Origin: an uncultured Parasphingorhabdus sp.
Lineage (GTDB): Bacteria; Pseudomonadota; Alphaproteobacteria; Sphingomonadales; Sphingomonadaceae
Length of the DNA: 64,000 bases
Assembly: GCA_951813595.1 (NCBI GenBank)
Contig: CATOTQ010000003.1
Location: 10,860 to 74,859 of the forward strand
Reading direction: 5' to 3'
Positions 2,371-63,949 of the stretch are shown in pieces (the first letter of the stretch is position 1; each line of letters begins with the position of its first letter). Made by a program: the position numbers and the translations under genes. The notes beneath the pieces are model-generated. The model was given only the letters and a program-made list of their open reading frames with translations, had not been told where the DNA came from and did no database searches.

Positions 2371-2817
2371 CTACCCTCCGTCTTGCGGTAGCGCTTTCAC
2401 ATGAGCGGACATATCACCGAAAAAAGGTCGCTTTGTAACGCGCCGGGCAAATCGCCAACGGCCATCAACCCGTTCAAAATCATCATGATATTCGCCGGAA
2501 AATATGGCCTGCAAGGGGCGGTCATCTATTTGTTGCAGCAAGGTTATATAGCTCGTGCATGATGCGACGCCTTGATCATCGTCAATGTTCAGGTCAACAT
2601 TGGTGACGACATGGCGCGTTCTGGGGGTTCCGTCCGGATAGACAATTAGAATATTGTTGATCATCTCGAACATCTGCTCTTTGCCTTTGAGCAGCGGTGC
2701 GTCCTCAGAGCCCCACTCGCCATGTTCAAAAAGGGCCGCCCAGCCTTCCAGGTCACCATTGTCCAGCAAAAATGTATAGCTGTTGATCAGATGCAGAATT
2801 TCTTCTCGGCTGGTCAT
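2371..2817 (-). CDS. SnoaL-like / NTF2-fold protein (SnoaL_4 type)
   Basis: INSYTFLLDNGDLEGWAALFEHGEW is the typical N-terminal SnoaL_4 pattern. About 148 aa, last gene of the P450 operon. Confidence 0.7.
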   Translation of the reverse strand: MTSREEILHLINSYTFLLDNGDLEGWAALFEHGEWGSEDAPLLKGKEQMFEMINNILIVYPDGTPRTRHVVTNVDLNIDDDQGVASCTSYITLLQQIDDRPLQAIFSGEYHDDFERVDGRWRFARRVTKRPFFGDMSAHVKALPQDGG

Positions 2818-4890: not shown

Positions 4891-5859
4891 TCATCTTGCG
4901 CGAAGCATCACTCCGGTGCCCTCTTTATTGGCCCCGTTGATGATCACGCCCGGAATTTTGAGGCCCCCGCAGCAGTTAACGCCTCGCTCCAGGCAGCCAA
5001 TTCCCTGATATTCATTGGCGGAAAACTCCATGAGTCCCTCAAAGCCGATCCATTCAGAGTGACTCACAATCCCGCCGCCCAGAAAATTTCTGAATTGAAG
5101 GTCAAAGCGTTTGCCATCCTGCGTTTCAAGCCAGCCCTGCGCTTCGGTAAAGCTTACGCCGTCGACTTCCATGAGTGGTCTCAGCTCCCAGTCTTTAAGC
5201 GGCGTCAACTTTCCATTTTCAACGATAAAGCCGCATTTCATCAGCTGGCCAGGAAACATAGCTACGGATGTGGCGAAGAAAGAAAATTCCTCGCCGGTCG
5301 TGCCGTTGATCCAGTTGCTTGTCTGAATTTCGTGAGTGTCGCGCGGACCCCATGAATGGTCGCGATGTCCGACACCGGATATTTCGGCCGTCTTTTCGCC
5401 GATTTCAATCTTGCCTGTCACTGTTCCGGCCACTTCGAAATGAGCGGAAGATATATCGTCCATCATTCCGCCAAAAGCAGACAGGTCCATATAGGCTTCC
5501 AGTGGTGCGGCTTCGTAAAGATCGGTAAAGACGAGTTCTGCACGAAAATCATCCTGAGCAACCGAGCAGCTCCATCCGCCTTTCTCAATATGCTGGAGGG
5601 TTAACCCGTCCACACTATATTTACCGTCTTCGCGCATCCATGCCGCATAGGGAATGCTGTGGCTGGTGCGCCTGGTGTATCGACCATCATCGGCGATAAG
5701 GATGTTCCAGATATGCGCCGTTCCGGCATTGGGTTGATGCGCTATGCGATGAAGGCCGGAAAAGCCTGTGTCTTTGTCAGCCCACCAGAACCATTGCGAT
5801 TCATTCCAACTTTTTTCAGGTCCCGCCGCGAGGGGTTTGCGGACTTCGATTACGCTCAT
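4891..5859 (-). CDS. uncharacterised conserved protein, U-family paralog 1 (RDHSWG motif)
   Basis: Paralog of 15387, 18228 and 36304. Motifs WNESQWFWW and GHRDHSWGPRD. The ATG at 5859 with a GGAGAG RBS is preferred over the ORF-track start at 5907. It lies immediately upstream of a P450 in the same operon. Confidence 0.75.
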   Translation of the reverse strand: MSVIEVRKPLAAGPEKSWNESQWFWWADKDTGFSGLHRIAHQPNAGTAHIWNILIADDGRYTRRTSHSIPYAAWMREDGKYSVDGLTLQHIEKGGWSCSVAQDDFRAELVFTDLYEAAPLEAYMDLSAFGGMMDDISSAHFEVAGTVTGKIEIGEKTAEISGVGHRDHSWGPRDTHEIQTSNWINGTTGEEFSFFATSVAMFPGQLMKCGFIVENGKLTPLKDWELRPLMEVDGVSFTEAQGWLETQDGKRFDLQFRNFLGGGIVSHSEWIGFEGLMEFSANEYQGIGCLERGVNCCGGLKIPGVIINGANKEGTGVMLRAR

Positions 5860-6089
5860 TTTTCTCTCCGTGGCCGACGATCGAGCAATTAACATGCAGT
5901 TCGCCATAAACCCATTGGCTACCGACGGCCATGCAATCCGCCGATTCCAAACTTCACCAGAATTTCAAATTTATTAATATATCAGTCAATATAATAATAT
6001 TGTCAAGTTGGAGTTTGCGGTATTGGCAACCTTTCACTGTTCTTAGCTAAATGTGAGTATTTCCAGCCAGCTCAACAGCCGTTGCGAAG

Positions 6090-6740
6090 CTATTTGAGAG
6101 GCTTGATCAAATCCGCCGCAAATAGCCGCTCAAGGCTGCGCAATGCTTCAAAATGGTTTGAATTATTCGCCTCAATACTGTGCTGGGTTCCGCCAAATAC
6201 GACTAGGGACAAAACATTTTCGACGGCATGCCTGTCGTTGGCGTCAATTTCGCCCGTTGAAACTCCTATGTCGGTGATCCCTTGATAAATTTTCAGCCAA
6301 TCTTTGTCCAGATTTGGATCCTTCAGTTCATCGTTTCGCCGCATTTCGTTGCGCACAACAGCGTTGAATTTAGCGTAGCTCGGATGCTCGATCAGAAGAG
6401 TTTGAGAGGCATCGAAAAAATACTGCATAGCTTCCAGAAACGTCGCGCATTCAAGCGATGGCAGTATGTGTTCCTTGATTCTTTTTTGCGTAGATCGATG
6501 AGCCGATCGAAACAGGTCCTGCTTGTTTTCAAAATAATGATAGATCGTGCCAGTGGTTAGTCGTGCACGTTCCGCGATCAATTTGTTCGACGTTTCCTTG
6601 AAACCAAACTCGCCGAAGCAATAGCGAGCGGCATCCTTGATCTTTTTCTTGGTCTTCTCGCTGTCGCCGGCCACAGGACGGCCTGCGCCACGTTTACGTA
6701 CTACGGGTTTGGTCGCCGCCTTGCTCGCGCTCTCTGCCAA
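6090..6740 (-). CDS. TetR-family transcriptional regulator
   Basis: N-terminal HTH: IKDAARYCFGEFGFKETSNKLIAERARLTTGTIYHYFENKQDLF. Confidence 0.9.
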   Translation of the reverse strand: MAESASKAATKPVVRKRGAGRPVAGDSEKTKKKIKDAARYCFGEFGFKETSNKLIAERARLTTGTIYHYFENKQDLFRSAHRSTQKRIKEHILPSLECATFLEAMQYFFDASQTLLIEHPSYAKFNAVVRNEMRRNDELKDPNLDKDWLKIYQGITDIGVSTGEIDANDRHAVENVLSLVVFGGTQHSIEANNSNHFEALRSLERLFAADLIKPLK

Positions 6741-6758
6741 TTTTTACCTTTCAAATTA

Positions 6759-6775
6759 ATCACCAAATTAGTGAT
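6759..6775. promoter_or_regulatory. candidate operator: inverted repeat ATCAC-N7-GTGAT in the tetR / E1alpha divergent region
   Basis: aATCACcaaattaGTGATa lies directly upstream of the TetR start (6740) and upstream of the E1alpha operon. Confidence 0.25.
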
Positions 6776-6921
6776 ATTGATATTTCCTGTTCGCATATGC
6801 CTCTCTGCAAAGCAAGGCTATGAGTACAACAGAACCCCAGCTAAAATTTTGATACCACCACCAAATCATAATTGACTGACCAGTTAAAAAAAGATAGATG
6901 AACGGTATTAGGAGGATTTCT

Positions 6922-7902
6922 ATGACCACGTCGCGCCAGAATCAGGCCTGGATATATGAACGGATGTTTCGCAGCCGTTATATGGAAGAACAGCTGATAC
7001 CAATTTATTTTCAGGACAAGTTGCCAGCTTTTGATATGCGTAAGGGGCCCTTGCCGGGCGAAATGCACTGGTCATTCGGACAGGAGCCTGTTGGCGCCGG
7101 CGTGTGTTCAGTTCTTGGCCCAGAAGATATCGTCACTACGGCACACCGCCCTCACCATGTGGCCGTTGGGCGCGACGTGAACCTCAATAAACTGGTGGCC
7201 GAACTTCTTCAGCGCAAATCAGGTTTGAGCGCAGGTAAGGGCGGTCATATGCATCTCTACTATCCTTCGGTGAACTTTTCCTGTTCATCGATTGTTGGCG
7301 AGAGTGCGGGGCCGACTGCCGGCATGGCAATGGCGAAGAAAATGCGCGGAGAACCGGGTGTGGCAGTGACGGTTATCGGCGAAGGCGCGACCAATCAGGG
7401 TATGTGGCATGAGGCTTTGAATATGGCGGTGCTATGGAAACTGCCCTTCATTTGCGTGATTGAAGACAACTACTACGGCGTTACAGTTGCAAAGCATGAA
7501 TCGACATCCATTGCGCGCAACAGCGATCGCGCATCGGCCTACGGCTGTCCCGGTGAATACGTGGAAGGCAATGATGCCGACAAGATTGCCGAGGCAATGG
7601 AGCGTGCGGTGAAGCATGCGCGGGATGGCAAGGGGCCATATATTTTGGAAGTGCAGACAGCACGGTTGCAAGGCCATTTCGCTGGTGATCAGGGTGCTTA
7701 TATTCCCGATGATATCAAAGCTGAATATTTGGTCGATGCGCTGCCGGAATATCGGCAGAGATTGCTTGACGGCGGGATGAGTGAGGCCGATCTGGAGGCG
7801 CTGGAAACCAGCGTTAAGGCGGGCGTTGATGAGGCGATCAAGCTAGCGTTGGCCGATGAACATGCCCCGCCAGAAGCGGCCCTAGAAAAATTGTTTGCTT
7901 GA
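6922..7902 (+). CDS. TPP-dependent 2-oxoacid/acetoin dehydrogenase E1 alpha subunit
   Basis: TPP motif GEGATNQG...(x)...IEDNYYG and E1alpha-like HMH/Y regions. AGGAGG RBS at 6910-6915 with ATG at 6922. Confidence 0.85.
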   Translation: MTTSRQNQAWIYERMFRSRYMEEQLIPIYFQDKLPAFDMRKGPLPGEMHWSFGQEPVGAGVCSVLGPEDIVTTAHRPHHVAVGRDVNLNKLVAELLQRKSGLSAGKGGHMHLYYPSVNFSCSSIVGESAGPTAGMAMAKKMRGEPGVAVTVIGEGATNQGMWHEALNMAVLWKLPFICVIEDNYYGVTVAKHESTSIARNSDRASAYGCPGEYVEGNDADKIAEAMERAVKHARDGKGPYILEVQTARLQGHFAGDQGAYIPDDIKAEYLVDALPEYRQRLLDGGMSEADLEALETSVKAGVDEAIKLALADEHAPPEAALEKLFA

Positions 7903-7914
7903 GGTGACGGTAAG

Positions 7915-8940
7915 ATGAGCGAAGAAACACAAGAAAATCAACGCATCCTAACCCCGGCTCGCGCCGGCCGCGAAGCGGTCATCTGGGAAATGGAGAAAGA
8001 CAAGAATGTCTTTTTCATGGGTGAAGATGTTTTCCATATGGGCGGTGTATTTAACACTGCAACCGGTCTGGCTGAACAATTCCCTGATCGTATTATCGAT
8101 ACGCCAATTTCCGAAGAAGGCTTTGTCGGCATAGCTGCTGGCGCTGCGATAGAAGGTATGCGGCCAATAGTGGAAATCGCCTTTGCCGATTTTCTATTGG
8201 TCTGCATGAACCCGCTCGCCAACTATGCGGCCAAAACGCACTATATGTCCAATGGACAGCTAAAAGTACCGATGACGCTTTTGGTGGGTGCAGGCGGCGG
8301 TTACAATAACGGCGCTGAGCAATCCCAGACGTTATATGCCATGCTGGCTCATTTCCCAGGTTTGAAGATCGTGGCTCCGTCCAACGCATACAATGCCAAG
8401 GGGTTGATCCATGCTGCAATCCGCGATGATAATCCGGTGGTGGTAATGTATAACAAGGCCACAATGGGTGTAGGCTGGCTAGGCCCTGCCATTCCAACAA
8501 TTATGAAGGAAGTGCCGGAAGAAGACTATGTCATACCGCTGGACAAGGCAGAAGTGATGCGTGAAGGCAGCGACATCACTCTGGTCGGTCTGGCTTGGAC
8601 CGTGCATCAATGTTTGATGGCCGCTGAAGAATTGGCTGAGGCAGGTATTTCTGCCGAGGTTATTGATCTCCGGTCCCTTGCACCGGTCGATGCCGATACT
8701 ATTGTTACGTCGGTTCAAAAGACTGGTCGATTGATTGTCGCGGACGAAGATTATCAAAGCTATGGCGCGACGGCAGAAGTGCTTGCCTCCTGTGTTGAAC
8801 GGGATGCAGCGATGTTCAAGGCACCGCCCAAACGCATCGGCTATCCCGACGTACCGCCCCCGGCCGGCAAAACCATGGAGGCTCTGTGCATGCCGAGCGC
8901 TGACAAGATTGTTGCTGCGGCAAAGGATATGATGGGCTGA
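7915..8940 (+). CDS. 2-oxoacid/acetoin dehydrogenase E1 beta subunit (transketolase-like)
   Basis: FFMGEDV...GGVF..T.GL...FP.R..DTPISE.GF.G.A.GAA..G.RP pattern. C-terminal transketolase domain (DLRSLAPVD). Confidence 0.9.
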   Translation: MSEETQENQRILTPARAGREAVIWEMEKDKNVFFMGEDVFHMGGVFNTATGLAEQFPDRIIDTPISEEGFVGIAAGAAIEGMRPIVEIAFADFLLVCMNPLANYAAKTHYMSNGQLKVPMTLLVGAGGGYNNGAEQSQTLYAMLAHFPGLKIVAPSNAYNAKGLIHAAIRDDNPVVVMYNKATMGVGWLGPAIPTIMKEVPEEDYVIPLDKAEVMREGSDITLVGLAWTVHQCLMAAEELAEAGISAEVIDLRSLAPVDADTIVTSVQKTGRLIVADEDYQSYGATAEVLASCVERDAAMFKAPPKRIGYPDVPPPAGKTMEALCMPSADKIVAAAKDMMG

Positions 8941-8986
8941 TCAACACTCTGGAGAGTAATGAAGGATTGAAGCGAGGAATGAACTG

Positions 8987-10402
8987 ATGGCTACAAAAGC
9001 AAAGGAAGACCAGACGCAGGAATATGCCAATTTCCCCGGGGAATCCGTGCAGGAAATAATCGTAGATGACGTTCGGCAACCGTCTTCGGCTTATAGAGAA
9101 ACATCCTATCATTTCCTTGGAGATGAGGACATTCCCAAGGAGCGGTATCTGGACTATGACTGGCATCGCCAGGAGGTCGAAAAAGTCTGGAAAAAAACGT
9201 GGCAGGTGGCTTGCCGGGAAGAGGATATTCCGAATTCAGGCGACTATTATGTGTACGATGTTGCAGATGATAGCGTTGTTGTCGCCCGCATGCCCGATGG
9301 CGGGATCAAGGCTTATGTGAACGCCTGTTTGCACCGCGGCAATGCACTGTGCACCGGGCAGGGTTCAAAAAAGAATTTCCGCTGTCCCTATCACGGCTGG
9401 ACCTGGAATCTGGAGGGCAAGATTAAATGGATCCCGGGACAATGGGATTTCCCCCATGTCGACAAGGCGGAGTTTGGACTACACGAGCTGCCTGTTGATA
9501 GCTGGGGCGGTTTCATCTTCATAAACCTGGATGAAGATTGTGGGCCGCTTTTGGAATATCTCGAAATATTGCCAGACCATCTCGATGCGGACGAACTCGC
9601 CAACCGCTACAAGGCAGTTCATGTTTCGCAGGTTGTTCCGTGCAACTGGAAGGTAGTGCAGGAAGCTTTTATCGAAGGCTATCATGTTGCTGAAACGCAT
9701 TTCGAAAAAGATGAAAACTACGATGTTCGCGCCGATACTATTGCGGCGTCAAATTGCGACACCGAGATTCAATATGATATCTGGCCAGGCGTTCGCCATA
9801 TTAATCGGCTGATTCAGCTTTCCGGCGTCCCAAGCGGCTATGTTGCGCACAAGCTGAAAAGCGAGCAGGATATTGTTGATATTATGCTTCGCGCTCTGCC
9901 TGAAGAAGCGCGACCAAAGTTGAAGGAAGGGCAAAAAGCGCGCCCTGTGCTGGCAGAATTTAGTCGCAAAGCATTGGGGGCGAGGCACAAGGTAGATTTG
10001 TCGCACATTAGCGACAGCGCGGCTCTGGATCAAATTCAGTATAATATCTTTCCCAATTTCACGATCTGGCCAGCGGTTGCTTCGCCATTGATGTATCGTT
10101 TCCGGCCCTATGGTGATGATCCAAACCAGGCCCTGTTCGAGATTTGGTTTATGTTCCCCAAACCCGGTGATGCCAGTGAATATACAGTTGCCAAAGAGAG
10201 GCGGTTGGGGCCGGATGAGAAATGGGAGGATGTCCCCGAACTTGGCCCTTACGGACCTATTGTTGATCAGGACATGCCCAATCTGGCGACCTTGCAAAAG
10301 GGGCTCCGGACCGCAAGAAAGGGGCTTACACTTGGTAATTATCAGGAAATTAGGGTTCGGCATTTCCACAAGACATTGGAAGAATATCTAGCCGCTGACT
10401 GA
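8987..10402 (+). CDS. Rieske [2Fe-2S] non-haem iron oxygenase, alpha (catalytic) subunit
   Basis: Rieske motif CLHRGNALC...x...FRCPYHGW. Mononuclear iron motif NWKVVQEAFIEGYHVAETH. No beta subunit is adjacent. Confidence 0.9.
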   Translation: MATKAKEDQTQEYANFPGESVQEIIVDDVRQPSSAYRETSYHFLGDEDIPKERYLDYDWHRQEVEKVWKKTWQVACREEDIPNSGDYYVYDVADDSVVVARMPDGGIKAYVNACLHRGNALCTGQGSKKNFRCPYHGWTWNLEGKIKWIPGQWDFPHVDKAEFGLHELPVDSWGGFIFINLDEDCGPLLEYLEILPDHLDADELANRYKAVHVSQVVPCNWKVVQEAFIEGYHVAETHFEKDENYDVRADTIAASNCDTEIQYDIWPGVRHINRLIQLSGVPSGYVAHKLKSEQDIVDIMLRALPEEARPKLKEGQKARPVLAEFSRKALGARHKVDLSHISDSAALDQIQYNIFPNFTIWPAVASPLMYRFRPYGDDPNQALFEIWFMFPKPGDASEYTVAKERRLGPDEKWEDVPELGPYGPIVDQDMPNLATLQKGLRTARKGLTLGNYQEIRVRHFHKTLEEYLAAD

Positions 10403-10436
10403 TCATTCTGATCGCAGTGCATAAGGAGCAAGATTA

Positions 10437-10673
10437 ATGAACGGAACGCCGATTACCATTGGTGATGATTTATGGGATGGCGATGATGAAGGCGTCGTCA
10501 ACACATGGCTCTACGCCGATGGCGCAAACATCAAAGAAGGTGATGTGATCGCTGAAATCATGGTCGAGAAAGTTGAGATGGAGATTGAGGCTCCTGCATC
10601 CGGAACTCTCAAGATTGTGGCCGAGGCCGAAGCGGTGATCGCCAAGGGTTCGGTTATCGGCCATATTGAATAG
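10437..10673 (+). CDS. stand-alone lipoyl-attachment domain protein (E2 N-terminal domain as a separate gene)
   Basis: 78 aa. GDVIAEIMVEKVEMEIEAPASGTLKIV matches the lipoyl/biotinyl hammerhead pattern (E.DK..ME.EAP..G.L). Confidence 0.75.
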   Translation: MNGTPITIGDDLWDGDDEGVVNTWLYADGANIKEGDVIAEIMVEKVEMEIEAPASGTLKIVAEAEAVIAKGSVIGHIE

Positions 10674-10687
10674 CGCGGGCCTTTGCC

Positions 10688-11368
10688 ATGAGCGATATTA
10701 TTAAACTCACGGGCCTGCGCGGCATGGTTGCTCGCAAGATGGCGGCGAGTGTGCAGGAAACCGCTCAGCTATCCTTTCATACCGATGTTGATGCGACAGC
10801 GCTTGTTTCCGCGCGTGCGGCATGGAAAGAATTGGGCAAGAAGGTCGGCTATGAGGATCTGATTATCAATGTCCTGCCTGCACTGGTGGCTCGGTTTCCA
10901 ACGTTTAACGCGATCGAAGAGGAAGATGGCGTCCATCTTAGCAAGGACGTGCACGTGGGATGCGCGATTTCTGTGGGTGATGCATTGATGGTGCCAGTTG
11001 TGCGAGGCTGTCAGGCCAAAAGTGTCGAAGAGATTGCCGCCGCTCGCCGCGATCTGGTTGAGCGTGCGCGTGCCAAGAAACTGGCGGTTTCGGATATGAC
11101 TGGGGGTACGATGACTATTTCCAATCTGGGTCTGACCCGGGTTGACTATTTCTCGCCGATATTAAACCGGCCGCAGCTTGCAATCATTGGCTTGGGGCGG
11201 ATTCGCAAGGCTCCTGTCGTCGATGAAGCGAGCGGTAAAGTGGTGGCGCGGTCAGTGATGGGACTTTCCCTGACGGTGGACCATCGATTGATAGATGGCC
11301 AGCCTGCGGGGGATTTCCTGACTGCGCTGGCAGAGGCGATAGAAACGAATACGAGCCTGCCCGATTGA
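10688..11368 (+). CDS. 2-oxoacid dehydrogenase acyltransferase (E2) catalytic domain only
   Basis: Active-site motif SLTVDHRLIDGQPAGDFL. 226 aa with no lipoyl or subunit-binding domain. Confidence 0.85.
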   Translation: MSDIIKLTGLRGMVARKMAASVQETAQLSFHTDVDATALVSARAAWKELGKKVGYEDLIINVLPALVARFPTFNAIEEEDGVHLSKDVHVGCAISVGDALMVPVVRGCQAKSVEEIAAARRDLVERARAKKLAVSDMTGGTMTISNLGLTRVDYFSPILNRPQLAIIGLGRIRKAPVVDEASGKVVARSVMGLSLTVDHRLIDGQPAGDFLTALAEAIETNTSLPD

Positions 11369-11391
11369 TCGGGCGGCTGGGGAAATCGAAG

Positions 11392-11835
11392 TTACGCTGC
11401 TTTGCCCAATACTGTTTCAATACCGTCGGCAAGCACGTTATATATTCTCAAAATTTCCGTCATTGCGGTCTCGGCATCTTCGTCATTCGCGGTAAACCAT
11501 GTGCTGTGCCAGTTCAGCCTTGAGCTTCCTTTGCCTGTTGCTTCGATCTTCATCGTCGCAGAATAATTGGCTACCGGAAACTGTAATCCCACTGGAACAG
11601 CGTAGGAAAGAGTTCTGGTGGCGACATCTTTTGCCAGAAGAACCTCCCAGACAGGTTCGGCACCCTCAATCTTGAGTATTCTCACGGTTCCGGGAGAACC
11701 ATCGCCGGTAACCTCCAACTTATGCTCTACGAGGAGCCAGTCCAAAGTGCCAAAGTCGCTCAGCAGAGCCCAGACCTTATCCGCTGCAAACTCCATTTCC
11801 CGGATAAAATATGTGTTTTTCACAATTATGTTCAC
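11392..11835 (-). CDS. SRPBCC (START/polyketide cyclase-like) family protein
   Basis: About 147 aa. The pattern FAADKVWALLSDFGTLDWL is typical of the SRPBCC N-terminus. Confidence 0.65.
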   Translation of the reverse strand: MNIIVKNTYFIREMEFAADKVWALLSDFGTLDWLLVEHKLEVTGDGSPGTVRILKIEGAEPVWEVLLAKDVATRTLSYAVPVGLQFPVANYSATMKIEATGKGSSRLNWHSTWFTANDEDAETAMTEILRIYNVLADGIETVLGKAA

Positions 11836-11876
11836 TCCCCGCCTGTTGGATTGAAAATCGGTTTATTCTAAATCTA

Positions 11877-12848
11877 CTATGCGATATATTTGTCGTAGAA
11901 TCGAGCATAATTATCGTAGGTAAACGCGATACCATCCTGACCGACAGGCGTGTTGGGATAGACCTGCTCATGGCCATGCGGGCAGCCTTTATAGAGCTTG
12001 AACGCAACATCCACTCCTTCGGCCTTCAGACTGTCAACATATTCGACTGTTTCCCGGTAAAATGGATCAAAGGTGCCAACAAAGGTAATTGTTGGAGGAA
12101 AATCTCGATAATCAGTGTTCCGGGCCGGTGCTGCATAGGTGGGAATCTCCTCCCCACGTTCATGCAAATCCTTCAGATAACTGCCCCAACCAAAGGCATT
12201 GGCTTTGCTGTCCCAACCGGGCACATCGATGAACCGCTCCGGGTCTGACGGCTGCAAATCGTCAATCATCGGATAGAAAGGCATTTGGAAAGCGATATTC
12301 ACGTCTTTCGTGTCGCGCGCTTTCAATGTGACCGCCGCGGTCAGCCCGCCGCCCGCACTATGCCCGGCAATCATGAACTTGTCAGGATCAATACCAAGCT
12401 CAGCTGCGTTGTCTCGCATCCAGAGCAATGCATCATAGCAATCGTCAAATGCTGCGGGATACGGTTTGACCAGCGCTGTGCGATAGGCGGGGGCCACAAT
12501 CACACACGGTCTACGTTCAATGAAATCGGCAATATGCCCGTCAAATACATCAGGGGACCCGGACACATATCCGCCACCATGCGTATAAAGCATCGGTGGC
12601 AAGTCGCCTGTTTGTGAAACCGGCCGGTATATCTTGAGACGAATCTTCGACTCCCCATCTCGGGTAGGCAGAAACCGTTCTTCGATGCTCACTGTATCCG
12701 GCACTCCACTTTTCAGCATTTTACCCAAAATTGCGTTTGCGAATCCCATTCGGCGCTTCCCCCGGTAAAGGTACTTTCCCATAGTCGCGAACACATACAT
12801 CGGGAACGAACGCAGATCTTGATGGAGCATTCGTCGGATTACTTTCAT
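11877..12848 (-). CDS. alpha/beta hydrolase, hormone-sensitive-lipase-type carboxylesterase
   Basis: Oxyanion HGGGY (LYTHGGGYVSG) and nucleophile elbow GHSAGGGL. Confidence 0.85.
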   Translation of the reverse strand: MKVIRRMLHQDLRSFPMYVFATMGKYLYRGKRRMGFANAILGKMLKSGVPDTVSIEERFLPTRDGESKIRLKIYRPVSQTGDLPPMLYTHGGGYVSGSPDVFDGHIADFIERRPCVIVAPAYRTALVKPYPAAFDDCYDALLWMRDNAAELGIDPDKFMIAGHSAGGGLTAAVTLKARDTKDVNIAFQMPFYPMIDDLQPSDPERFIDVPGWDSKANAFGWGSYLKDLHERGEEIPTYAAPARNTDYRDFPPTITFVGTFDPFYRETVEYVDSLKAEGVDVAFKLYKGCPHGHEQVYPNTPVGQDGIAFTYDNYARFYDKYIA

Positions 12849-15386: not shown

Positions 15387-16394
15387 ATGACAAACTTCGC
15401 ACCAGAAGGTTTCGATCCTGTCGCTGACATGAATCATCAGAGACCCGATAACACACCCGGTTGGACGGAAAGCTATGCGTTCTGGGCTTATTGGGAGGGT
15501 CGCTATCTATATATGCATTATCAGCGCCACCCAGAGCAGAGCAGCATGTGGCGCGGGCTTGCAGTAGTAAGTGGTGAAGATGGCAGCATCGTTGCCGCGC
15601 ACAGTTTTGGCCGCGAATATTCGCCCTTTGGGCCTGGTTTTGAGCAAATTCACGCCATTTGTGAACGTCCTTTTGAATCCTACAGGGTTGAAGTCGATAC
15701 AATCGGTCAGGTTAGCGATCGTAAAACTGTACGGCAGAACTTTTTGCCGAGCTTGGGCAACGATCTCACCCCGCTTAAGCTGGAACTGCTATTCACTTCG
15801 GTTTCGGAAACATATTCTCCTATCAGAGGTGAGGCAGCGGGCGCCAAGTCGGTGGCGAAGTGGACACATTACACGCCCTGTAAGGTCCATGGCTATGTCA
15901 CAATCGGTGATGAGCGGGTCTATATTGATACCTTGGGATTCCGCGATCATTCATCCGGCGTAAGGTCATTCGAAAAAATGGGCACCGGCTATATGCATAC
16001 GGGTATTTTCCCCAGCGGCCGCAGCTATATGGCGCTTGGCATTCGCAGCCAAGACGATGATGGCAATATGCAATTTGCCTCCATGGGCGGTCTGACAATT
16101 GACGGGAAAGTCTACTACGCCAACAATATCGAGGTTCACGATAACACAATCTGTATCCCTGAGCCTGGTATGGAGCTCGGCCAGCTCAAATTTGAAACTG
16201 ATGCGGGCGAGGCTGTGATCAATCTTAATGTCACAGGCCAGGGCTTTCCACTGACCAATTTGCCGCCATGTTACGAAGCGGTGGGAATGCGACATCAGAA
16301 TGGCGATCTGGTCTATCATGATTGGCGACTGGACATTGAATGGGATGGCGAAAAAGGTATCGGCGGATGGGAGACCTGTGTCCGCTTGGACTAG
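15387..16394 (+). CDS. uncharacterised conserved protein, U-family paralog 2
   Basis: GWTESYAFWAYWEGRYLYMHYQRHPE, GFRDHSSGVRS, RLDIEWDGEKGIGGWE. Close paralog of 36304..37341. Confidence 0.8.
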   Translation: MTNFAPEGFDPVADMNHQRPDNTPGWTESYAFWAYWEGRYLYMHYQRHPEQSSMWRGLAVVSGEDGSIVAAHSFGREYSPFGPGFEQIHAICERPFESYRVEVDTIGQVSDRKTVRQNFLPSLGNDLTPLKLELLFTSVSETYSPIRGEAAGAKSVAKWTHYTPCKVHGYVTIGDERVYIDTLGFRDHSSGVRSFEKMGTGYMHTGIFPSGRSYMALGIRSQDDDGNMQFASMGGLTIDGKVYYANNIEVHDNTICIPEPGMELGQLKFETDAGEAVINLNVTGQGFPLTNLPPCYEAVGMRHQNGDLVYHDWRLDIEWDGEKGIGGWETCVRLD

Positions 16395-16459: not shown

Positions 16460-17146
16460 GTGGCCAATGGCCAAATCATCATCGTGAATGGCACTTCGGG
16501 TGCAGGCAAAACCACGACCATCACCAAATTCGCCGAGCGGGCGGACGAAGCTTATATGATGTTCGGCATCGATCAGCTGATGGGGCAGCTTCTGCCAGTG
16601 AAATTTTCGGGTTTCGGTGCCCGTGCGACTGAAGGTATGCATTTTGTCCCGAACGACCCGAATGATCCCGACAGTCCTCTACACGCCGAATTTGGTGACG
16701 TAGCGCAAAAGGCGCTCTCGGCCTTTCATGACATGATCGTCGCAGCATCAAGAGCCGGGCAAAATGTGATTGCTGACCACATCATGTTTCTCGAACCTCC
16801 TGTCTTGCAGGACTGCATCTGGCGATTGAAAGATGTTCCGGTGCTCTATGTTGCCGTAAAGCCGCCCCGCGAAATACCGATTGCCCGTCAAGCGACCCGT
16901 GAGGTCGATTTACCTGAGCAATATGCCGAAGAGCTTGGCGAGGATGCGCGCAAGGAAATCGCGAGAAGCATGGAGCGGATGGCCGGTTGGTTCTATGACG
17001 CAGCATATGAAAATGACTGTTATGATCTGGTCATTGATTCAGACAAATATAGCCCCGATGAGGTTTGTGAACAAATCGAGCAGCGCCTTGCAGAAGGCCC
17101 AGGTACAGCCTTTCAAACATTGCGCGATCAGTACCCGAAGGCATAG
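16460..17146 (+). CDS. P-loop kinase, chloramphenicol-phosphotransferase-like (CPT) family
   Basis: GTG start. IIIVNGTSGAGKTTTITKFAE Walker A at the extreme N-terminus; ~228 aa, a CPT-like layout. Confidence 0.6.
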   Translation: MANGQIIIVNGTSGAGKTTTITKFAERADEAYMMFGIDQLMGQLLPVKFSGFGARATEGMHFVPNDPNDPDSPLHAEFGDVAQKALSAFHDMIVAASRAGQNVIADHIMFLEPPVLQDCIWRLKDVPVLYVAVKPPREIPIARQATREVDLPEQYAEELGEDARKEIARSMERMAGWFYDAAYENDCYDLVIDSDKYSPDEVCEQIEQRLAEGPGTAFQTLRDQYPKA

Positions 17147-17160
17147 GCGAGGATATTAAT

Positions 17161-22733: not shown

Positions 22734-22943
22734 TTATTTTTGAATAATGTCTTCGTCTAGCGGATTGCCCATTACATGTACGGAGCCACTGTCTATCCGC
22801 AGGTCGGTCCCGGTGATGAAGCTTGCCCGATTGGATATCAGGAAATCTACCGCTGCCGCAACGTCATTGGGGCTGCCCCAACGGCCCAAGGGAATGCTGT
22901 CGACAAACGCGGGTGCGTTAGGGTTATTTTGCCAATCTCTCAC
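22734..22943 (-). pseudogene. SDR C-terminal stump (last ~60 codons only)
   Basis: [48 protein letters not shown] aligns with the C-terminus of intact SDRs in the window (e.g. ...[35 protein letters not shown]). There is no Rossmann or catalytic part. A stop lies 6 codons upstream in frame. It abuts and overlaps the stop of the Mo-enzyme gene. Confidence 0.75.
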
Positions 22944-25117: not shown

Positions 25118-25309
25118 TCTCTCTCCGGCGCGCATCGCGCTTGACGGGAAGGCGGTCTTGCCACTCAGATACCCGATCGCCCCAATTATCGACTGGTTGA
25201 TATATTATTGTCAAGCTGCTATCATAATTAGGAATTTGCGGAGGCTTCAAGAGGTCTGTAGCCTGCATTGTCGGGGGATTTTTGCAAGTCCGCAAGAGAG
25301 GAGAAAACG

Positions 25310-31166: not shown

Positions 31167-31176
31167 GACCACTTGA
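30649..31176 (+). CDS. SRPBCC-family protein (pair member b, copy A)
   Basis: 175 aa. It shares HRA.VN..V...W.VFT.HER...(W/Y)T, ERNGLGCVR, W.P....GYH.TSG with member a. It differs from 38136..38663 only in its last 2 residues, past the repeat edge. Confidence 0.7.
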   Translation: MEFPRRFFHRAKVNVPVSVAWDVFTDHERMGEYTDTVCRITRPGDTERNGLGCVRLLGVRENNLPDVEEVVNFWEPNKLFGYHVTSGAPISHHQGLIMFHDRGPHKSEWVYNMRLTALPEILEATPEFYDVFDEGFRQFMKNAECECERRGAEEDLFSPPAIPPLLSEQGGQLTT

Positions 31177-35629: not shown

Positions 35630-35759
35630 CTACAGCGCCCATCCTTCTTAAAATTGTCTCCGCCGGCTTGCGGCTTCTGGTCTTGATTTTGATTTCCTTA
35701 TATCATAATCTATCACCCAATCAATTCAATATTCTTTGCTTAGCCTGAAGGAGGCAGAA

Positions 35760-51803: not shown

Positions 51804-51947
51804 TTTTTGAACAGGTGCAAGCCTGAACGGAGTTAAATTTGGACCCTTGATGGGCAGTGACCATCAATGGCTGTAGCTGGAAGTAACAAATGGCGATTTG
51901 AATTTGCGAAACCGCATGAGTAGAAAATTAGAGGAGTATTGGGGTTC

Positions 51948-52262
51948 ATGCCAAAAGTGACGTTTGTCGAGCCTTCGGGTACGAAACATGAGATTGACGC
52001 TGATACGGGACACTCGTTAATGGAAGTTGCCGTGGCCAATGACATTCCCGGAATTGAGGCCGACTGCGGAGGTTCCTGCGCCTGTGCAACCTGTCATGTC
52101 TTCATTGATGAGGCCTGGCGCGAAAAAACCGGCGATATGGATGATATGGAAGATGAGATGCTGGATGTTGCCGAAAACCGGGACGACAGTTCTCGACTGT
52201 CCTGTCAGATTCCCCTAACAGATGATCTGGACGGTCTGGTCGTTCGCGTCGCGGAGGGTTGA
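51948..52262 (+). CDS. [2Fe-2S] ferredoxin, adrenodoxin/putidaredoxin type
   Basis: MPKVTFVEPSGT...EADCGGSCACATCHV...LSCQI (Cx5Cx2C...C). GAGGAG RBS. Confidence 0.9.
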   Translation: MPKVTFVEPSGTKHEIDADTGHSLMEVAVANDIPGIEADCGGSCACATCHVFIDEAWREKTGDMDDMEDEMLDVAENRDDSSRLSCQIPLTDDLDGLVVRVAEG

Positions 52263-53008
52263 CTCGCCACTCCAAGATTATGCGAGAGCAGGAAATTAAT
52301 ATGCGGCTGGCTGCCGCTATTGCAGATCAGGGCATAGCCGTTGACTGCGACTGGCGTATCGAGTTGCCCGAGTTGAAATTGCAGCGTGAGCTCCGGCATT
52401 ATTATAATTTGCGCAATGGTGAGCCGCACGCTCCCCACGTCTGGCTCTGGACCAATCTGCAATGCCTGGTGGCGACGCGGCGGCATGCCCGTAACGACAA
52501 GTTTGATGAGGCCGGCCTCAAAATGCTGGAACTCGGCTCGCCGGTTGTGGTCCGCCGATCGGGCGGGACGGTCGTTCCCCACGGGCCGGGGATTCTTAAT
52601 CTCAGCCTGTTCCACGTCACCAATACGGCGAAAATCGAAACAGGATATCAGCCTCTTATCGAGCTGCTTATCAATGCACTGAATGCCCTCGGTTTGAAAG
52701 CAAACTGTGGATCGTGCCCCGGATCATTTTGTGATGGTACTTACAATTTGCTTGTTGGTGGCAGGAAGGTTGCAGGCACCGCAGCCATGTTGAAACGGCG
52801 GGGCGGGCTGTCCTATTGGCTGGCTCATGCAACAATCATGGTCGATGCGGATATTGAGCAAGCTGTGGGTGCTGTTGCGAAATTTGAACAACATCTAGGA
52901 CTCAGGTCCAATTATCAGATCGAAAGACATACAAGCCTTGCAGAACATCTGGATAATCCGGGTGACCAACAAAATGTTCCAAACCCGGCAGAGGCGTTGG
53001 CAGTATGA
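52259..53008 (+). CDS. lipoate-protein ligase / octanoyltransferase-family (BPL_LplA_LipB) protein
   Basis: VVRRSGGTVVPHGPGILNLSLF and NLLVGGRKVAGTAAML fit the LplA/LipB catalytic-domain pattern. The start is uncertain (52259 TTG, 52280 or 52301 ATG). Confidence 0.65.
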   Translation: MTRHSKIMREQEINMRLAAAIADQGIAVDCDWRIELPELKLQRELRHYYNLRNGEPHAPHVWLWTNLQCLVATRRHARNDKFDEAGLKMLELGSPVVVRRSGGTVVPHGPGILNLSLFHVTNTAKIETGYQPLIELLINALNALGLKANCGSCPGSFCDGTYNLLVGGRKVAGTAAMLKRRGGLSYWLAHATIMVDADIEQAVGAVAKFEQHLGLRSNYQIERHTSLAEHLDNPGDQQNVPNPAEALAV

Positions 53009-62722: not shown

Positions 62723-63949
62723 ATGACTCACTATGACATAGTCATTGTTGGTTCTGGCCATGCCGGTGCCCAGGCTGCAGTGAGCTTGCGGCAACAAAAG
62801 TTCGCGGGCTCGATCACCATTGTCACCCGCGAAACGGAGCTGCCCTATGAGCGCCCACCGCTGTCGAAGGAATATTTGGCTGGAGATAAGCCCTTTGAAC
62901 GGCTGTTGTTGCGTCCTCCCGAATATTGGGACAAGAATGAAATTGAAATAATATCCGGCGAAGAGGTGGTGTCTGTCGATCCCGCTGCGCATAGGGTCGC
63001 GCTGGGTAATGGCGACACACTGGGTTATGGCAAGTTGATCTGGGCGGCTGGCGGCGATCCACGACCTCTACCGGTTCCGGGCGGCGATCTGCGGGGAGTT
63101 TTTGGCATTCGCACGCGCGCGGATGTTACCGGTATCATGGACAGGTTGGATGACATTCGGCAGGTGGTGATTGTCGGCGGTGGCTATATCGGGCTGGAGG
63201 CGGCGGCCGTCTTCACCAAGCTAGGTCGCAGGGTGATTTTGCTGGAAGCGCTCGACCGTGTTCTGACACGTGTGGCTGGCGAAGATTTGTCAGCATTTTA
63301 TGAAGGCTTTCATCGCGCGAAAGGTGTCGATCTGCGGACCGATGTTGTGATTGAGACGATTACAGGCGGGAAGACGGCCGAGGGCGTGAAGCTTGCGGAT
63401 GGAGAAATCCTGCCAGCCGACATTGTGATCGTTGGCATCGGCATTGTGCCATCTGTTGCACCGCTGATTGATGCTGGTGCGGAAGGGGGCAATGGCGTCT
63501 AGGTCGATGAATATTGTCGGAGCAGTTTGGCTGACATCTATGCCATTGGTGATTGCGCTGCGCATCACAATGATTTTGCGGAAGGTGCGGAAACTAGGCT
63601 GGAATCGGTTCAGAACGCGAATGATCAGGCCAAGGTTGCAGCGATGCATATTTGCGGAAATGCCAAACCTTACAATGCGATCCCGTGGTTCTGGTCCGAT
63701 CAATTTGATCTGAAGCTGCAAACTGTTGGTCTGTCGGCCGGTTTTGATCAGACGGTTACGCGCGGCAATCCTGATCAAAACAGTTTTTCTATTGTCTATT
63801 TGAAGGAAGGCAAGGTCATTGCGCTTGATTGTGTCAATGCAGTCAAGGATTATGCGCAGGGTCGCAAGCTAGTTGAAGCAAGGGCGGAAATCGCACCGCA
63901 CCAGCTCAATGATACGGAAACACCGCTCAAAGCCATGTTGGAGGTTTAA
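62723..63949 (+). pseudogene. NAD(P)H:ferredoxin reductase (putidaredoxin-reductase type) interrupted by an in-frame TAG at 63500-63502
   Basis: IVIVGSGHAGAQ, VVIVGGGYIGLEAA, then ..GNGV[TAG][21 protein letters not shown] continues in the same frame to 63949. Confidence 0.8.

What the first reader, a model, noticed from the sequence alone, without database searches (positions are those of the whole stretch)
6922..11368. TPP-dependent E1alpha/E1beta operon with an inserted Rieske oxygenase and an E2 split into separate lipoyl and catalytic genes
The gene order is E1alpha, E1beta, Rieske/mononuclear-iron oxygenase alpha subunit, a 78-aa stand-alone lipoyl domain (candidate lipoyl-Lys in VEKVEMEIEAP), then a 226-aa stand-alone E2 catalytic domain (DHRLIDG). 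The last two are separated by only 14 nt. I saw no peripheral subunit-binding domain, no E3 gene, no oxygenase beta subunit and no dedicated oxygenase reductase. Canonical 2-oxoacid and acetoin dehydrogenase E2 proteins are single polypeptides, so a split E2 lacking the E1/E3 docking domain implies a different assembly. One possible logic: the oxygenase creates an alpha-hydroxyketone or vicinal diketone on the substrate, the acetoin-dehydrogenase-like E1 cleaves it, and the acyl group passes via lipoate to CoA.
Basis: partly seen in the sequence, partly recalled or inferred. Interest (0 to 1): 0.65.

Follow-up and report, generated by a model that had tools for sequence, protein, structure and literature searches.

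The report
Split-E2 lipoate cleavage operon with Rieske oxygenase
This is a real and widely conserved but apparently undescribed variant of the acetoin/2-oxoacid dehydrogenase machinery, in which the swinging lipoyl arm is a free 78-residue protein separate from the acyltransferase; in this bacterium an oxygenase gene sits inside the operon, probably to prepare a greasy substrate for carbon-carbon cleavage.

Summary
The five-gene order is real: E1alpha, E1beta, Rieske oxygenase alpha, a 78-aa lipoyl protein and a 226-aa E2 catalytic domain. Two isolate sequencing runs reproduce it with no differences.

The split E2 is not an artefact. Of 82 related loci from Alpha- and Gammaproteobacteria, 61 have E1a-E1b-Lip-E2c, always with Lip and E2c as separate genes and no subunit-binding domain. 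The lipoyl lysine is invariant (73/73). A divergent LplA/LipL-like ligase follows E2c in 37 loci and a true E3 is present in 5.

The window carries the ligase homologue at 52259, overlapping a [2Fe-2S] ferredoxin gene at 51939. No E3 gene was found.

The Rieske gene lies inside the operon only in the closest relatives (two environmental contigs). Its orthologues lie within 10 kb of E1/E2c genes in 7 of 10 contexts, in three different arrangements, so linkage recurs at island level.

Most likely function: a TetR-controlled module in a P450-rich island for hydrophobic compounds. The module cleaves next to a carbonyl and passes the acyl group through a free lipoyl carrier to CoA. The substrate is unknown, and acyloin cleavage versus 2-oxoacid decarboxylation is undecided.

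I found no description of this architecture in the searchable literature. Verdict: new variant of a known kind, moderate interest.

The parts
6090..6740 (-). TetR-family regulator, transcribed divergently from the operon
   Evidence: PF00440, E 1.3e-13. A TetR gene occupies the same position in L001 (57% identity). Related TetR genes (42-51%) lie next to the module in L086 and L054.
6922..7902 (+). ThDP-dependent E1 alpha subunit (alternative ATG at 6898)
   Evidence: PF00676, E 1.7e-54. The start at 6922 has an aggagg ribosome-binding site. The closest solved structure is human PDH E1alpha. The family signature GEG...(E/Q)DN replaces GDG...ENN in 67/67 relatives.
7915..8940 (+). E1 beta subunit
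   Evidence: PF02779 and PF02780. NCBIfam PDH E1beta scores 293 bits, below the cut-off of 321.
8987..10402 (+). Rieske non-haem iron oxygenase alpha subunit with no adjacent beta subunit
   Evidence: PF00355 and PF00848. Carries the CxH..CxxH motif. Only the N-terminal half matches solved oxygenases such as BphA1 and CntA. Orthologues of 84% and 79% identity hold the same position in L085 and L088.
10437..10673 (+). Free-standing lipoyl carrier protein (78 aa); candidate lipoyl-lysine K45
   Evidence: PF00364. K45 aligns with the lipoyl-lysine of 1LAB and M. tuberculosis DlaT. It is invariant in 73/73 stand-alone homologues.
10688..11368 (+). Free-standing E2 acyltransferase catalytic domain (226 aa) with no lipoyl or subunit-binding domain
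   Evidence: PF00198, E 8e-64. Invariant residues include H199 and D203 of DHRxxDG, and S194. The AlphaFold2 model has pLDDT 93.9, with TM 0.88-0.91 to E2 cores.
11392..11835 (-). SRPBCC (Polyketide_cyc2) protein, convergent with the operon; probably binds a hydrophobic ligand
   Evidence: PF10604. A homologue of 54% identity holds the same position after E2c in L001. SRPBCC genes also lie near the module or the Rieske orthologue in L127, L132, L133 and L134.
51939..52262 (+). Adrenodoxin-type [2Fe-2S] ferredoxin, likely electron donor to the Rieske oxygenase and/or the P450s
   Evidence: Cys motif. TIGR02007-like, 63 bits. 56% identical to the Fer2 gene that directly follows the Rieske orthologue in L086.
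52259..53008 (+). Divergent LplA/LipL-like lipoyl or octanoyl transferase, likely dedicated to the 78-aa carrier
   Evidence: PF21948, E 1.7e-21. The best NCBIfam matches are LipL-type transferases, far below their cut-offs. Homologues sit directly downstream of E2c in 37 loci and next to Rieske-Fer2 in L086.
62723..63949 (+). Ferredoxin-NAD+ reductase gene interrupted by an in-frame TGA at 63500-63502
   Evidence: HcaD-like N-terminal part and Reductase_C in the following ORF. The stop is seen in translation and is present in both isolate runs.

Best explanation
The operon encodes a working, TetR-controlled member of a large and so far undescribed family of lipoate-dependent ThDP enzyme systems. 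In this family the E2 is split into a free lipoyl carrier (Lip) and a stand-alone acyltransferase (E2c) with no subunit-binding domain.

Proposed cycle, inferred from family chemistry:
1. The E1alpha2beta2 enzyme breaks the C-C bond next to a carbonyl of a pathway intermediate and reductively acylates lipoyl-K45 of Lip.
2. Acyl-Lip diffuses to E2c, which transfers the acyl group to CoA.
3. Dihydrolipoyl-Lip is reoxidised by an E3 encoded elsewhere. The arrangement works like the H-protein shuttle of the glycine cleavage system rather than a tethered swinging arm.
4. Lip is lipoylated by the divergent LplA/LipL-like enzyme at 52259.

In this lineage the Rieske monooxygenase is co-transcribed with the module and is probably fed by the ferredoxin at 51939. 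It most likely hydroxylates the substrate next to a keto group, making the alpha-hydroxyketone that E1 cleaves.

The surrounding island holds at least seven P450s, many SDRs, a Baeyer-Villiger monooxygenase, esterases, SRPBCC and SnoaL proteins, CoA ligases and transferases, and a TonB-dependent receptor. That content points to a hydrophobic alicyclic, terpenoid- or steroid-like substrate.

Shown here: gene structure, catalytic motifs, conservation of the split, and linkage to the ligase, E3 and Rieske genes.
Inferred: the reaction, the substrate, the free-carrier mechanism, the E3 partner and the order of steps.
For: Structure and motifs.

The split is conserved. Of 82 non-duplicate loci, 65 have an adjacent stand-alone Lip and 61 have contiguous E1a-E1b-Lip-E2c. 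None is fused, and some have 4-nt ATGA overlaps.

A full lipoamide cycle is implied. The ligase lies directly after E2c in 37 loci. A bona fide Lpd (TIGR01350, 562 bits) follows the ligase in L036, and Lpd homologues occur in four more loci.

Evidence for an alcohol/ketol context:
- AcoR-like sigma-54 activators occur in 22 loci, GMC oxidoreductases in 18 and PQQ alcohol dehydrogenases in 5.
- A Zn alcohol dehydrogenase gene is inserted between E1a and E1b in 9 loci. This parallels the Rieske insertion here.
- The best NCBIfam match of Lip is the AcoC lipoyl domain.

Evidence for Rieske coupling:
- The same E1b-Rieske-Lip-E2c order occurs in L085 (87/84/81/79% identity) and L088.
- L133 has E2c divergent from Rieske-CoA transferase-E1a-E1b.
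- L086 has Rieske-Fdx-ligase 5 kb from E1b-E1a-Lip-E2c.
- L127 and L001/L090 have the Rieske orthologue 7-10 kb from the module.
- The Rieske gene has the same GC3 as its neighbours.

Not an artefact: two isolate runs are identical across the region.
Against: - No E3 gene was found in the 64-kb window.
- The only ferredoxin reductase in the window carries an in-frame stop.
- The ligase and ferredoxin lie 41 kb from the operon.
- Most module-bearing genomes have no Rieske gene nearby (7 of 61, with unrelated clades). Three of 10 Rieske-orthologue contexts have no E1/E2c within 10 kb.
- The E1 clade is about 35% identical both to a plasmid gene labelled acoA and to one labelled pdhA. Automatic names of close homologues are divided between acetoin and pyruvate enzymes. 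Sequence therefore does not decide acyloin cleavage against 2-oxoacid decarboxylation.
- There is no expression evidence. Three small putative RNA runs of the organism hold nothing from the region.
- The free-carrier mechanism and the E2c oligomeric state are inferred, not observed.
Confidence: 0.55

Rival explanations
1. The same split module acts as a true 2-oxoacid dehydrogenase. A carboxylic-acid intermediate is hydroxylated at C-2 by the Rieske enzyme or a P450 and oxidised to the 2-oxoacid by an SDR. E1 then decarboxylates it to give an acyl-CoA one carbon shorter. This would be a bacterial alpha-oxidation used to bypass a branch that blocks beta-oxidation.
For: The best solved and NCBIfam matches of E1alpha and E1beta are pyruvate dehydrogenase E1. 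About half of the automatic names of close homologues are 'pyruvate dehydrogenase E1'. E2c is a standard 2-oxoacid_dh catalytic domain. The island is rich in CoA ligases, enoyl-CoA hydratases, a CoA transferase and a thiolase-like protein, which fits acid and CoA-ester chemistry.
Against: All PDH model scores fall below their family cut-offs (231 against 394 bits; 293 against 321 bits). In other lineages the module is tied to AcoR-like regulators and to alcohol or polyol dehydrogenases (Zn alcohol dehydrogenase inside the operon, PQQ alcohol dehydrogenase, GMC), which yield ketols rather than 2-oxoacids. The best lipoyl-domain match is AcoC.
Confidence: 0.25
2. The Rieske gene is a passenger. 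It was moved into the operon during shuffling of a catabolic island and acts on a different step of the same or another pathway, with no direct product-substrate relation to E1.
For: The closest full relative (L001, 74-81% identity) has E1a-E1b-Lip-E2c without it, and the orthologue lies 10 kb away. 54 of 61 module loci have no Rieske gene within 10 kb. Three orthologue contexts lack E1/E2c. Gene order in these islands is clearly fluid. Rieske and P450 genes are common in such islands, so some proximity is expected.
Against: The in-operon position is kept across three lineages that have diverged to 79-84% protein identity, with the Rieske protein diverging in step with its neighbours. Two further independent arrangements put the orthologue beside E1/E2c genes (L133) or beside the Lip-specific ligase (L086). 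The gaps of 34-46 nt and the lack of an internal terminator-like site above background argue for co-transcription.
Confidence: 0.18
3. The split is an artefact or a decaying gene: a frameshifted or truncated canonical E2.
For: Canonical E2 proteins are single polypeptides. The nearest fused relative in the loci (L076, 462 aa, lipoyl + two subunit-binding-like segments + catalytic domain) is 40% identical to E2c.
Against: Two independent runs give the identical sequence. All 65 related loci with both parts have them as separate ORFs, several with ATGA overlaps. Catalytic residues and the lipoyl-lysine are invariant. No subunit-binding-domain remnant could fit in the 14-nt gap.
Confidence: 0.02

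Closest known systems
Acetoin dehydrogenase enzyme system (AcoA/AcoB/AcoC/AcoL, regulator AcoR)
   Same: Both have a heterotetramer-type ThDP E1alpha/E1beta, a lipoyl-dependent acyl transfer to CoA and a catabolic role. In 22 related loci an AcoR-like sigma-54 activator and alcohol dehydrogenases accompany the module. The Lip domain is most similar to the AcoC lipoyl domain.
   Different: AcoC is one polypeptide with an N-terminal lipoyl domain (established knowledge; the NF011457 model is 372 residues long). Here Lip and the catalytic domain are separate proteins with no subunit-binding domain. The window uses a TetR regulator, has no AcoL/E3 gene, and carries a Rieske oxygenase gene inside the operon. 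E1alpha has GEG...EDN instead of GDG...ENN.
Canonical 2-oxoacid dehydrogenase complexes (PDH, OGDH, BCKDH)
   Same: E1alpha/E1beta and the E2 catalytic domain are clear homologues. A true E3 gene follows the module in a few relatives.
   Different: There is no tethered lipoyl arm and no subunit-binding domain. The C-terminus lacks the hydrophobic tail seen in E. coli SucB (..TRLLLDV) and AceF (..RRLVM), so a 24- or 60-mer core is doubtful. All equivalog scores are below their cut-offs.
Corynebacterial/mycobacterial OdhA (KGD) hybrid complex
   Same: It is a precedent for an E2 catalytic domain that has no lipoyl domain of its own and is served in trans. The PDB entries named '2-oxoglutarate dehydrogenase E1/E2 component' match E2c. 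The hybrid complex is described in PMC7568260 (listed).
   Different: In OdhA the catalytic domain is fused to E1o and borrows the lipoyl domains of a full-length E2p. Here both parts are free-standing small proteins encoded side by side.
Free lipoyl carriers with their own ligases: glycine-cleavage H protein; LbpA with sLpl(AB) of the sHdr sulfur-oxidation system
   Same: Both use a small free lipoylated protein that shuttles between separate enzymes. As in the LbpA system, a dedicated divergent lipoate ligase gene is linked to it (PMC6067878; ligase linkage here).
   Different: Lip is an E2-type lipoyl domain (PF00364), and no H-protein (GCV_H) family appeared among its Pfam matches. Its partners are E1/E2c of the 2-oxoacid dehydrogenase type.
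ThDP enzymes that cleave ketols rather than 2-oxoacids: QncN/QncL (a ketose-derived C2 unit passed to a lipoyl E2) and the steroid-17,20-desmolase DesAB. Both are recalled from memory and were not checked here.
   Same: They show that E1- or transketolase-like enzymes can cleave an alpha-hydroxyketone, including one on a steroid side chain, and that the fragment can pass to lipoate.
   Different: No sequence comparison was made. QncL is a fused E2 and DesAB uses no lipoate. These are leads for the chemistry, not family assignments.

Membership tests
2-oxoacid dehydrogenase complex (PDH/OGDH/BCKDH type) | ThDP-dependent E1 with a GDG...NN cofactor motif | tested here: inconclusive
   PF00676 and PF02779/PF02780 are clearly met. 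The motif is the variant GEG...EDN, fixed in 67/67 relatives. PDH equivalog scores are below their cut-offs.
2-oxoacid dehydrogenase complex (PDH/OGDH/BCKDH type) | E2 as one polypeptide: lipoyl domain(s) + peripheral subunit-binding domain + catalytic domain | tested here: not met
   A 78-aa Lip and a 226-aa E2c are separate ORFs in different frames, 14 nt apart, with no subunit-binding domain. This holds in all 65 relatives with both parts.
2-oxoacid dehydrogenase complex (PDH/OGDH/BCKDH type) | E2 catalytic residues (His and Asp/Asn of DHRxxDG, Ser/Thr) and the chloramphenicol acetyltransferase-like fold | tested here: met
   H199, D203 and S194 are invariant. The model has pLDDT 93.9 and TM about 0.9 to E2 cores.
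2-oxoacid dehydrogenase complex (PDH/OGDH/BCKDH type) | Dihydrolipoyl dehydrogenase (E3) partner | tested here: not met
   No E3 was found among the window ORFs of at least 140 aa that were scanned. It is present in 5 related loci. An E3 elsewhere in the genome cannot be excluded.
2-oxoacid dehydrogenase complex (PDH/OGDH/BCKDH type) | Oxidative decarboxylation of a 2-oxoacid | not testable with these tools
   Needs an enzyme assay.
Acetoin dehydrogenase enzyme system (AcoABCL) | AcoA/AcoB-type E1 that cleaves acetoin | tested here: inconclusive
   Automatic names of homologues at 52-56% identity are divided between acoA and pdhA. Identity is about 35% both to a plasmid gene labelled acoA and to one labelled pdhA. 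No characterised AcoA sequence was available for comparison.
Acetoin dehydrogenase enzyme system (AcoABCL) | AcoC: lipoyl domain fused to the acyl-transferring domain | tested here: not met
   Lip is free-standing. Only its lipoyl domain resembles AcoC (NF011457, E 3.8e-10, residues 16-77 of 372).
Acetoin dehydrogenase enzyme system (AcoABCL) | Sigma-54 activator AcoR | tested here: not met
   The window has a divergent TetR gene instead. AcoR-like activators occur in 22 related loci.
Rieske non-haem iron oxygenase, alpha subunit | Rieske CxH-x17-CxxH cluster motif and the His/His/carboxylate iron site in a Ring_hydroxyl_A domain | tested here: met
   CLHRGNALCTGQGSKKNFRCPYH. EAFIEGYHVAETH is read from the translation. 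PF00355 and PF00848 are both met.
Rieske non-haem iron oxygenase, alpha subunit | Partner beta subunit, ferredoxin and reductase | tested here: inconclusive
   No beta subunit lies next to the gene in the window or next to any orthologue. A ferredoxin lies at 51939, and its homologue directly follows the orthologue in L086. The reductase gene carries an in-frame stop.
Lipoyl domain (PF00364) carriers | Lysine at the hairpin tip that is lipoylated | tested here: met
   K45 aligns with the lipoyl-lysine of 1LAB and DlaT and is invariant in 73/73. Actual lipoylation is not testable here.

The most novel reading that the evidence does not exclude
The E1a-E1b-Lip-E2c(-ligase) module could be an unrecognised class of lipoate-dependent C-C cleaving systems. 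It would work without a scaffold: an 8-kDa free lipoyl carrier with its own LipL-like transferase, and an E2 with no subunit-binding domain that is perhaps only trimeric. In the window's lineage the module would be hard-wired to a Rieske monooxygenase to give a 'hydroxylate next to the ketone, then cleave to acyl-CoA' route for terpenoid- or steroid-like ketones. That route would be an alternative to the Baeyer-Villiger/esterase route.
Probability: 0.3. Interest if true: 0.7.

Novelty: new variant of a known kind. Interest (0 to 1): 0.55.

Why it matters
Textbook 2-oxoacid and acetoin dehydrogenases rely on a lipoyl arm tethered to a large E2 core that also docks E1 and E3. Here a family found in many marine and soil Proteobacteria, including Phaeobacter plasmids, Halomonas, Marinobacterium, Pseudomonas/Stutzerimonas and sphingomonads, has dispensed with the tether and the docking domain. 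It has also acquired its own lipoyl transferase.

If the free-carrier mechanism holds, it is a natural minimal version of these complexes. That would be useful for understanding how substrate channelling evolved and for engineering acyl-CoA-forming cleavage modules.

Databases currently give these genes only generic names. A defined function would improve annotation of many catabolic islands. It could also reveal a new way in which bacteria break C-C bonds in recalcitrant alicyclic compounds.

Tried and rejected
- Literature. Five full-text searches found no description of a split Lip/E2c system. The bile-salt and Ambrox degradation papers checked contain none of the E1/E2/lipoyl terms searched for. 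The library is incomplete, so absence is not proof.
- Promoter and terminator scan of 6000-12000. Counts equal the shuffled background, so it is uninformative.
- Transcription. Three small putative RNA runs of the same organism hold nothing from 6000-12000, which is uninformative. One run search failed.
- A Thermus plasmid gene labelled acoA proved to be an automatic label in an unrelated context, so it was not used as an AcoA reference.
- Deciding acyloin against 2-oxoacid chemistry from E1 sequence. No diagnostic residues could be established. The GEG/EDN signature marks the clade but has no known functional meaning.
- The C-terminal 'knob' argument for a trimer-only E2c rests on comparison with two E. 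coli proteins and on general knowledge. It is kept as a hint only.
- A complex model of Lip with E2c or E1 could not be made, because only single chains can be predicted here.
- The window's own genome did not appear in the species-representative genome collection (best E2c match 58%), so the organism was not identified.

Full report
**1. The observation**

The + strand between 6.9 and 11.4 kb carries five co-directional ORFs. Pfam assigns them as follows.
- 6898/6922-7902: E1_dh, E 1.7e-54.
- 7915-8940: Transket_pyr and Transketolase_C.
- 8987-10402: Rieske and Ring_hydroxyl_A.
- 10437-10673: Biotin_lipoyl, 78 aa.
- 10688-11368: 2-oxoacid_dh catalytic domain, 226 aa, E 8e-64.

The intergenic gaps are 12, 46, 34 and 14 nt, and Lip and E2c are in different frames. 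The E1alpha start at 6922 has an aggagg ribosome-binding site, and the 326-aa product is the one held in the protein collection.

A TetR gene (6090-6740) is transcribed divergently upstream. An SRPBCC gene (11392-11835) is convergent downstream.

Contigs of two isolate sequencing runs, at 226x and 146x word depth, cover 6800-11500 with no differences.

**2. The parts look functional**

- K45 of Lip (MVEK45VEMEIEAP) aligns with the lipoyl-lysine of the Bacillus stearothermophilus E2p lipoyl domain (1LAB) and of M. tuberculosis DlaT.
- E2c keeps the DHRxxDG His/Asp and the upstream Ser/Thr. These are invariant in a 38-sequence family alignment.
- The AlphaFold2 model of E2c has pLDDT 93.9 and superposes on solved E2 cores at TM 0.88-0.91.
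- The Rieske protein has CxH-x17-CxxH and an E-x3-E-x2-H-x4-H iron motif. Only its N-terminal half resembles solved oxygenases.
- E1alpha aligns with human PDH E1alpha but carries GEG...EDN where the human enzyme has GDG...ENN. This variant is fixed in 67 of 67 relatives.

**3. The split E2 defines a large family**

A protein search with E2c returned more than 240 relatives. Nearly all are 210-240 aa and have the catalytic domain only.

A scan of species-representative genomes gave 80 loci. With look-ups by exact protein, this made 82 non-duplicate loci.
- 65 have a stand-alone Lip gene directly upstream of E2c.
- 61 have contiguous E1a-E1b-Lip-E2c.
- Lip and E2c are never one ORF, and several pairs overlap by ATGA.

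The hosts include:
- Sphingomonadales, Kordiimonas, Hyphomicrobiales, Rhodobacterales and Hyphomonadaceae;
- Marinobacterium, Halomonas and relatives, Marinobacter, Pseudomonas, Stutzerimonas, Shewanella and Cocleimonas;
- Phaeobacter inhibens plasmids, where RefSeq uses only generic names such as 'lipoyl domain-containing protein' and '2-oxo acid dehydrogenase subunit E2'.

The lipoyl-lysine is invariant in 73 of 73 Lip proteins, as are W13 and W24.

The nearest fused E2 among the loci is L076 (Planctomycetota, 462 aa, lipoyl + two subunit-binding-like segments + catalytic domain). It is 40% identical to E2c.

The family's C-termini end in '..ALE' plus a short, mostly polar tail. E. coli SucB ends in ..TRLLLDV and AceF in ..RRLVM. 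By general knowledge of E2 cores, this hints at a trimer that does not build a cube or dodecahedron. That is inference only.

**4. What travels with the module**

Neighbour clustering and targeted searches gave these results.
- A roughly 250-aa LplA/LipB-fold protein lies directly after E2c in 37 loci and somewhere in the locus in 41. Its best NCBIfam matches are LipL-type octanoyl or lipoyl amidotransferases, far below their cut-offs.
- A bona fide dihydrolipoyl dehydrogenase (TIGR01350, 562 bits) follows the ligase in L036. Homologues occur in four more loci. The module therefore runs a normal lipoamide redox cycle.
- AcoR-like sigma-54 activators occur in 22 loci. GMC oxidoreductases occur in 18 loci and the Tat-signal small subunit in 17. 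PQQ alcohol dehydrogenases occur in 5.
- In nine Gammaproteobacterial loci a Zn alcohol dehydrogenase gene is inserted between E1a and E1b.

These associations point to alcohol, ketol or diol catabolism. They are the main reason I favour acyloin cleavage over 2-oxoacid decarboxylation. The best NCBIfam match of the Lip domain is the AcoC lipoyl domain, which agrees.

Sequence alone does not settle the question. PDH E1 models score below their cut-offs. The E1 is about 35% identical both to a plasmid gene labelled acoA and to one labelled pdhA. Automatic names of close homologues are divided between the two.

**5. The rest of the system in the window**

The ligase homologue is at 52259-53008 (PF21948). 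Its start overlaps the end of a 107-aa adrenodoxin-type [2Fe-2S] ferredoxin gene at 51939-52262.

In locus L086 the Rieske orthologue (65%) is followed directly by a ferredoxin (56% to the window's) and the ligase (41%). E1b-E1a-Lip-E2c lies 5 kb further on, behind a TetR gene. The window therefore holds the same gene set in a different order: the Rieske gene has moved next to the E1/E2 genes, and its ferredoxin has stayed with the ligase.

A ferredoxin-NAD+ reductase gene at 62723-63949 is interrupted by an in-frame TGA. The stop is present in both isolate runs.

No E3 gene was found in the window.

**6. Is the Rieske gene linked or a passenger?**

None of the 82 E2c-seeded loci has a Rieske gene between E1b and Lip. 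Only 7 of the 61 complete modules have any Rieske alpha gene within 10 kb, all at 29-38% identity. The closest complete relative (L001, 74-81% identity, with the same TetR and SRPBCC flanks) has plain E1a-E1b-Lip-E2c.

Searching from the Rieske protein gives a different picture.
- L085 (84%) has E1b-Rieske-Lip-E2c, with neighbours at 87, 81 and 79% identity.
- L088 (79%) has the end of E1b, then Rieske, Lip and E2c.
- L133 (59%) has E2c divergent from Rieske-CoA transferase-E1a-E1b.
- L086/L087 (65%), L127 (62%) and the L001/L090 genome (63%) have the orthologue 5-10 kb from the module.
- L089, L132 and L134 have no E1/E2c within 10 kb.

That is 7 of 10 contexts, in three different arrangements. 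The Rieske gene's GC3 matches that of its neighbours.

The in-operon position is therefore a lineage-specific rearrangement. Association at island level recurs, which argues for a shared pathway. A FdhA-like molybdopterin oxidoreductase (window 41724-43913) accompanies the same gene set in L054, L086 and L089 at 50-53% identity. Genes with the same three domains lie near the Rieske orthologue in L133 and L134.

**7. Context**

The window is a catabolic island. It contains:
- at least seven P450s and eight or more SDRs;
- a Baeyer-Villiger-type monooxygenase and two esterases;
- a limonene-epoxide-hydrolase-like protein and many SRPBCC and SnoaL proteins;
- two old-yellow-enzyme/dienoyl-CoA-reductase-like flavoproteins;
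- a CoA ligase, a CoA transferase, enoyl-CoA hydratases and a thioesterase;
- a TonB-dependent receptor and an MFS transporter.

This content suggests a hydrophobic alicyclic, terpenoid- or steroid-like substrate. The compound cannot be named from sequence.

**8. Mechanism, rivals and novelty**

Best explanation (confidence 0.55): a functional split-E2, free-carrier, lipoate-dependent ThDP module. It cleaves next to a carbonyl and delivers the acyl group to CoA. The Rieske monooxygenase probably makes the ketol that E1 cleaves.

Rivals:
- the same module acting as a 2-oxoacid dehydrogenase in an alpha-oxidation-like step (0.25);
- the Rieske gene as a passenger (0.18);
- an artefact or decaying gene (0.02, refuted).

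I found no description of this architecture in five literature searches, and databases give only generic names. The closest precedents are these:
- the acetoin dehydrogenase system;
- the corynebacterial OdhA hybrid, in which a catalytic domain is served by lipoyl domains in trans;
- the free lipoyl carriers that have their own ligases, namely the H protein and LbpA/sLpl.

I rate it a new variant of a known kind. The split module as a family is the more interesting result. The window's Rieske insertion is one instructive instance of it, paralleled by the alcohol dehydrogenase insertion in Gammaproteobacteria.

Noticed in passing
window 29980-31166 and 37467-38653: There is an exact 1187-bp direct duplication, 7487 bp apart. 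Each copy carries the same pair of SRPBCC (Polyketide_cyc2) genes (30125-31176 and 37612-38663). The flanks are unrelated, at about 27% identity.
   Followed up: partly
window 62723-63949: A ferredoxin-NAD+ reductase gene (HcaD-like N-terminal part, Reductase_C C-terminal part) carries one in-frame TGA at 63500-63502 (..[13 protein letters not shown]..). The stop is identical in two isolate runs. It is therefore a real nonsense codon, a pseudogene or a read-through site rather than an assembly error.
   Followed up: partly
window 22940-25135 and 41724-43913 (both - strand): Two cytoplasmic FdhA/NasC-like molybdopterin oxidoreductases of about 730 aa lie in a hydrocarbon-type island. The second has homologues of 50-53% identity next to the Rieske orthologue or the split-E2 module in L054, L086 and L089, and genes with the same domains lie near the orthologue in L133 and L134. 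Its role is unknown; aldehyde or formate oxidation after cleavage is one idea.
   Followed up: partly
L034, L053, L058, L075, L079, L081-L084 (about 7450-8690 in each locus): In nine Gammaproteobacterial loci a Zn-dependent alcohol dehydrogenase gene is inserted between E1alpha and E1beta of the same split-E2 module. This is a second, independent case of an oxidoreductase gene placed inside the module.
   Followed up: yes
L003, L005, L008-L012, L014, L015, L025, L060 (Sphingobium and relatives): Stand-alone E2c genes (52-58% identity) occur with no adjacent Lip or E1 gene. In L003 the cluster holds thiolase, MaoC hydratase, HpcH-type lyase, acyl-CoA dehydrogenase, a limonene-epoxide-hydrolase-like protein and enoyl-CoA hydratase genes, and several of these loci have a Rieske gene about 6 kb away. 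The acyltransferase may work with a carrier encoded elsewhere or with another acceptor.
   Followed up: no
window 16460-18258 and 34523-35629; L001 12722-14593: A chloramphenicol-phosphotransferase-like kinase and an APH-family kinase lie side by side next to DUF7064/DUF7065 (Rv3169-family) proteins (4891-5907, 18228-19283, and distantly 15387-16394). The kinase pair is conserved (55% and 45% identity) in the closest relative's island, and an APH gene lies beside a DUF7065-like gene in L134. This suggests a phosphorylation step in the pathway.
   Followed up: no
L086 16596-19561 and L087: In this relative the E1 genes are in the order beta then alpha (E1b-E1a-Lip-E2c), the reverse of the order in the window and in the other complete modules examined.
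   Followed up: no
L126 (Phaeobacter inhibens plasmid pP78_a, NZ_CP010630.1, 117724-123659): The complete module lies on a 256-kb roseobacter plasmid beside a Mu-type transposase. It comprises E1a, E1b, Lip, E2c, the ligase, a Tat-signal small subunit and a GMC oxidoreductase, so the module appears to be mobile.
   Followed up: partly
window 2371-2817, 35736-36251, 60194-60715: Three small SnoaL_4/NTF2-like proteins are present. Two have weak similarity to ring-hydroxylating oxygenase beta subunits (PF00866, E 6e-9 and 2e-6). None lies next to the Rieske gene.
   Followed up: no
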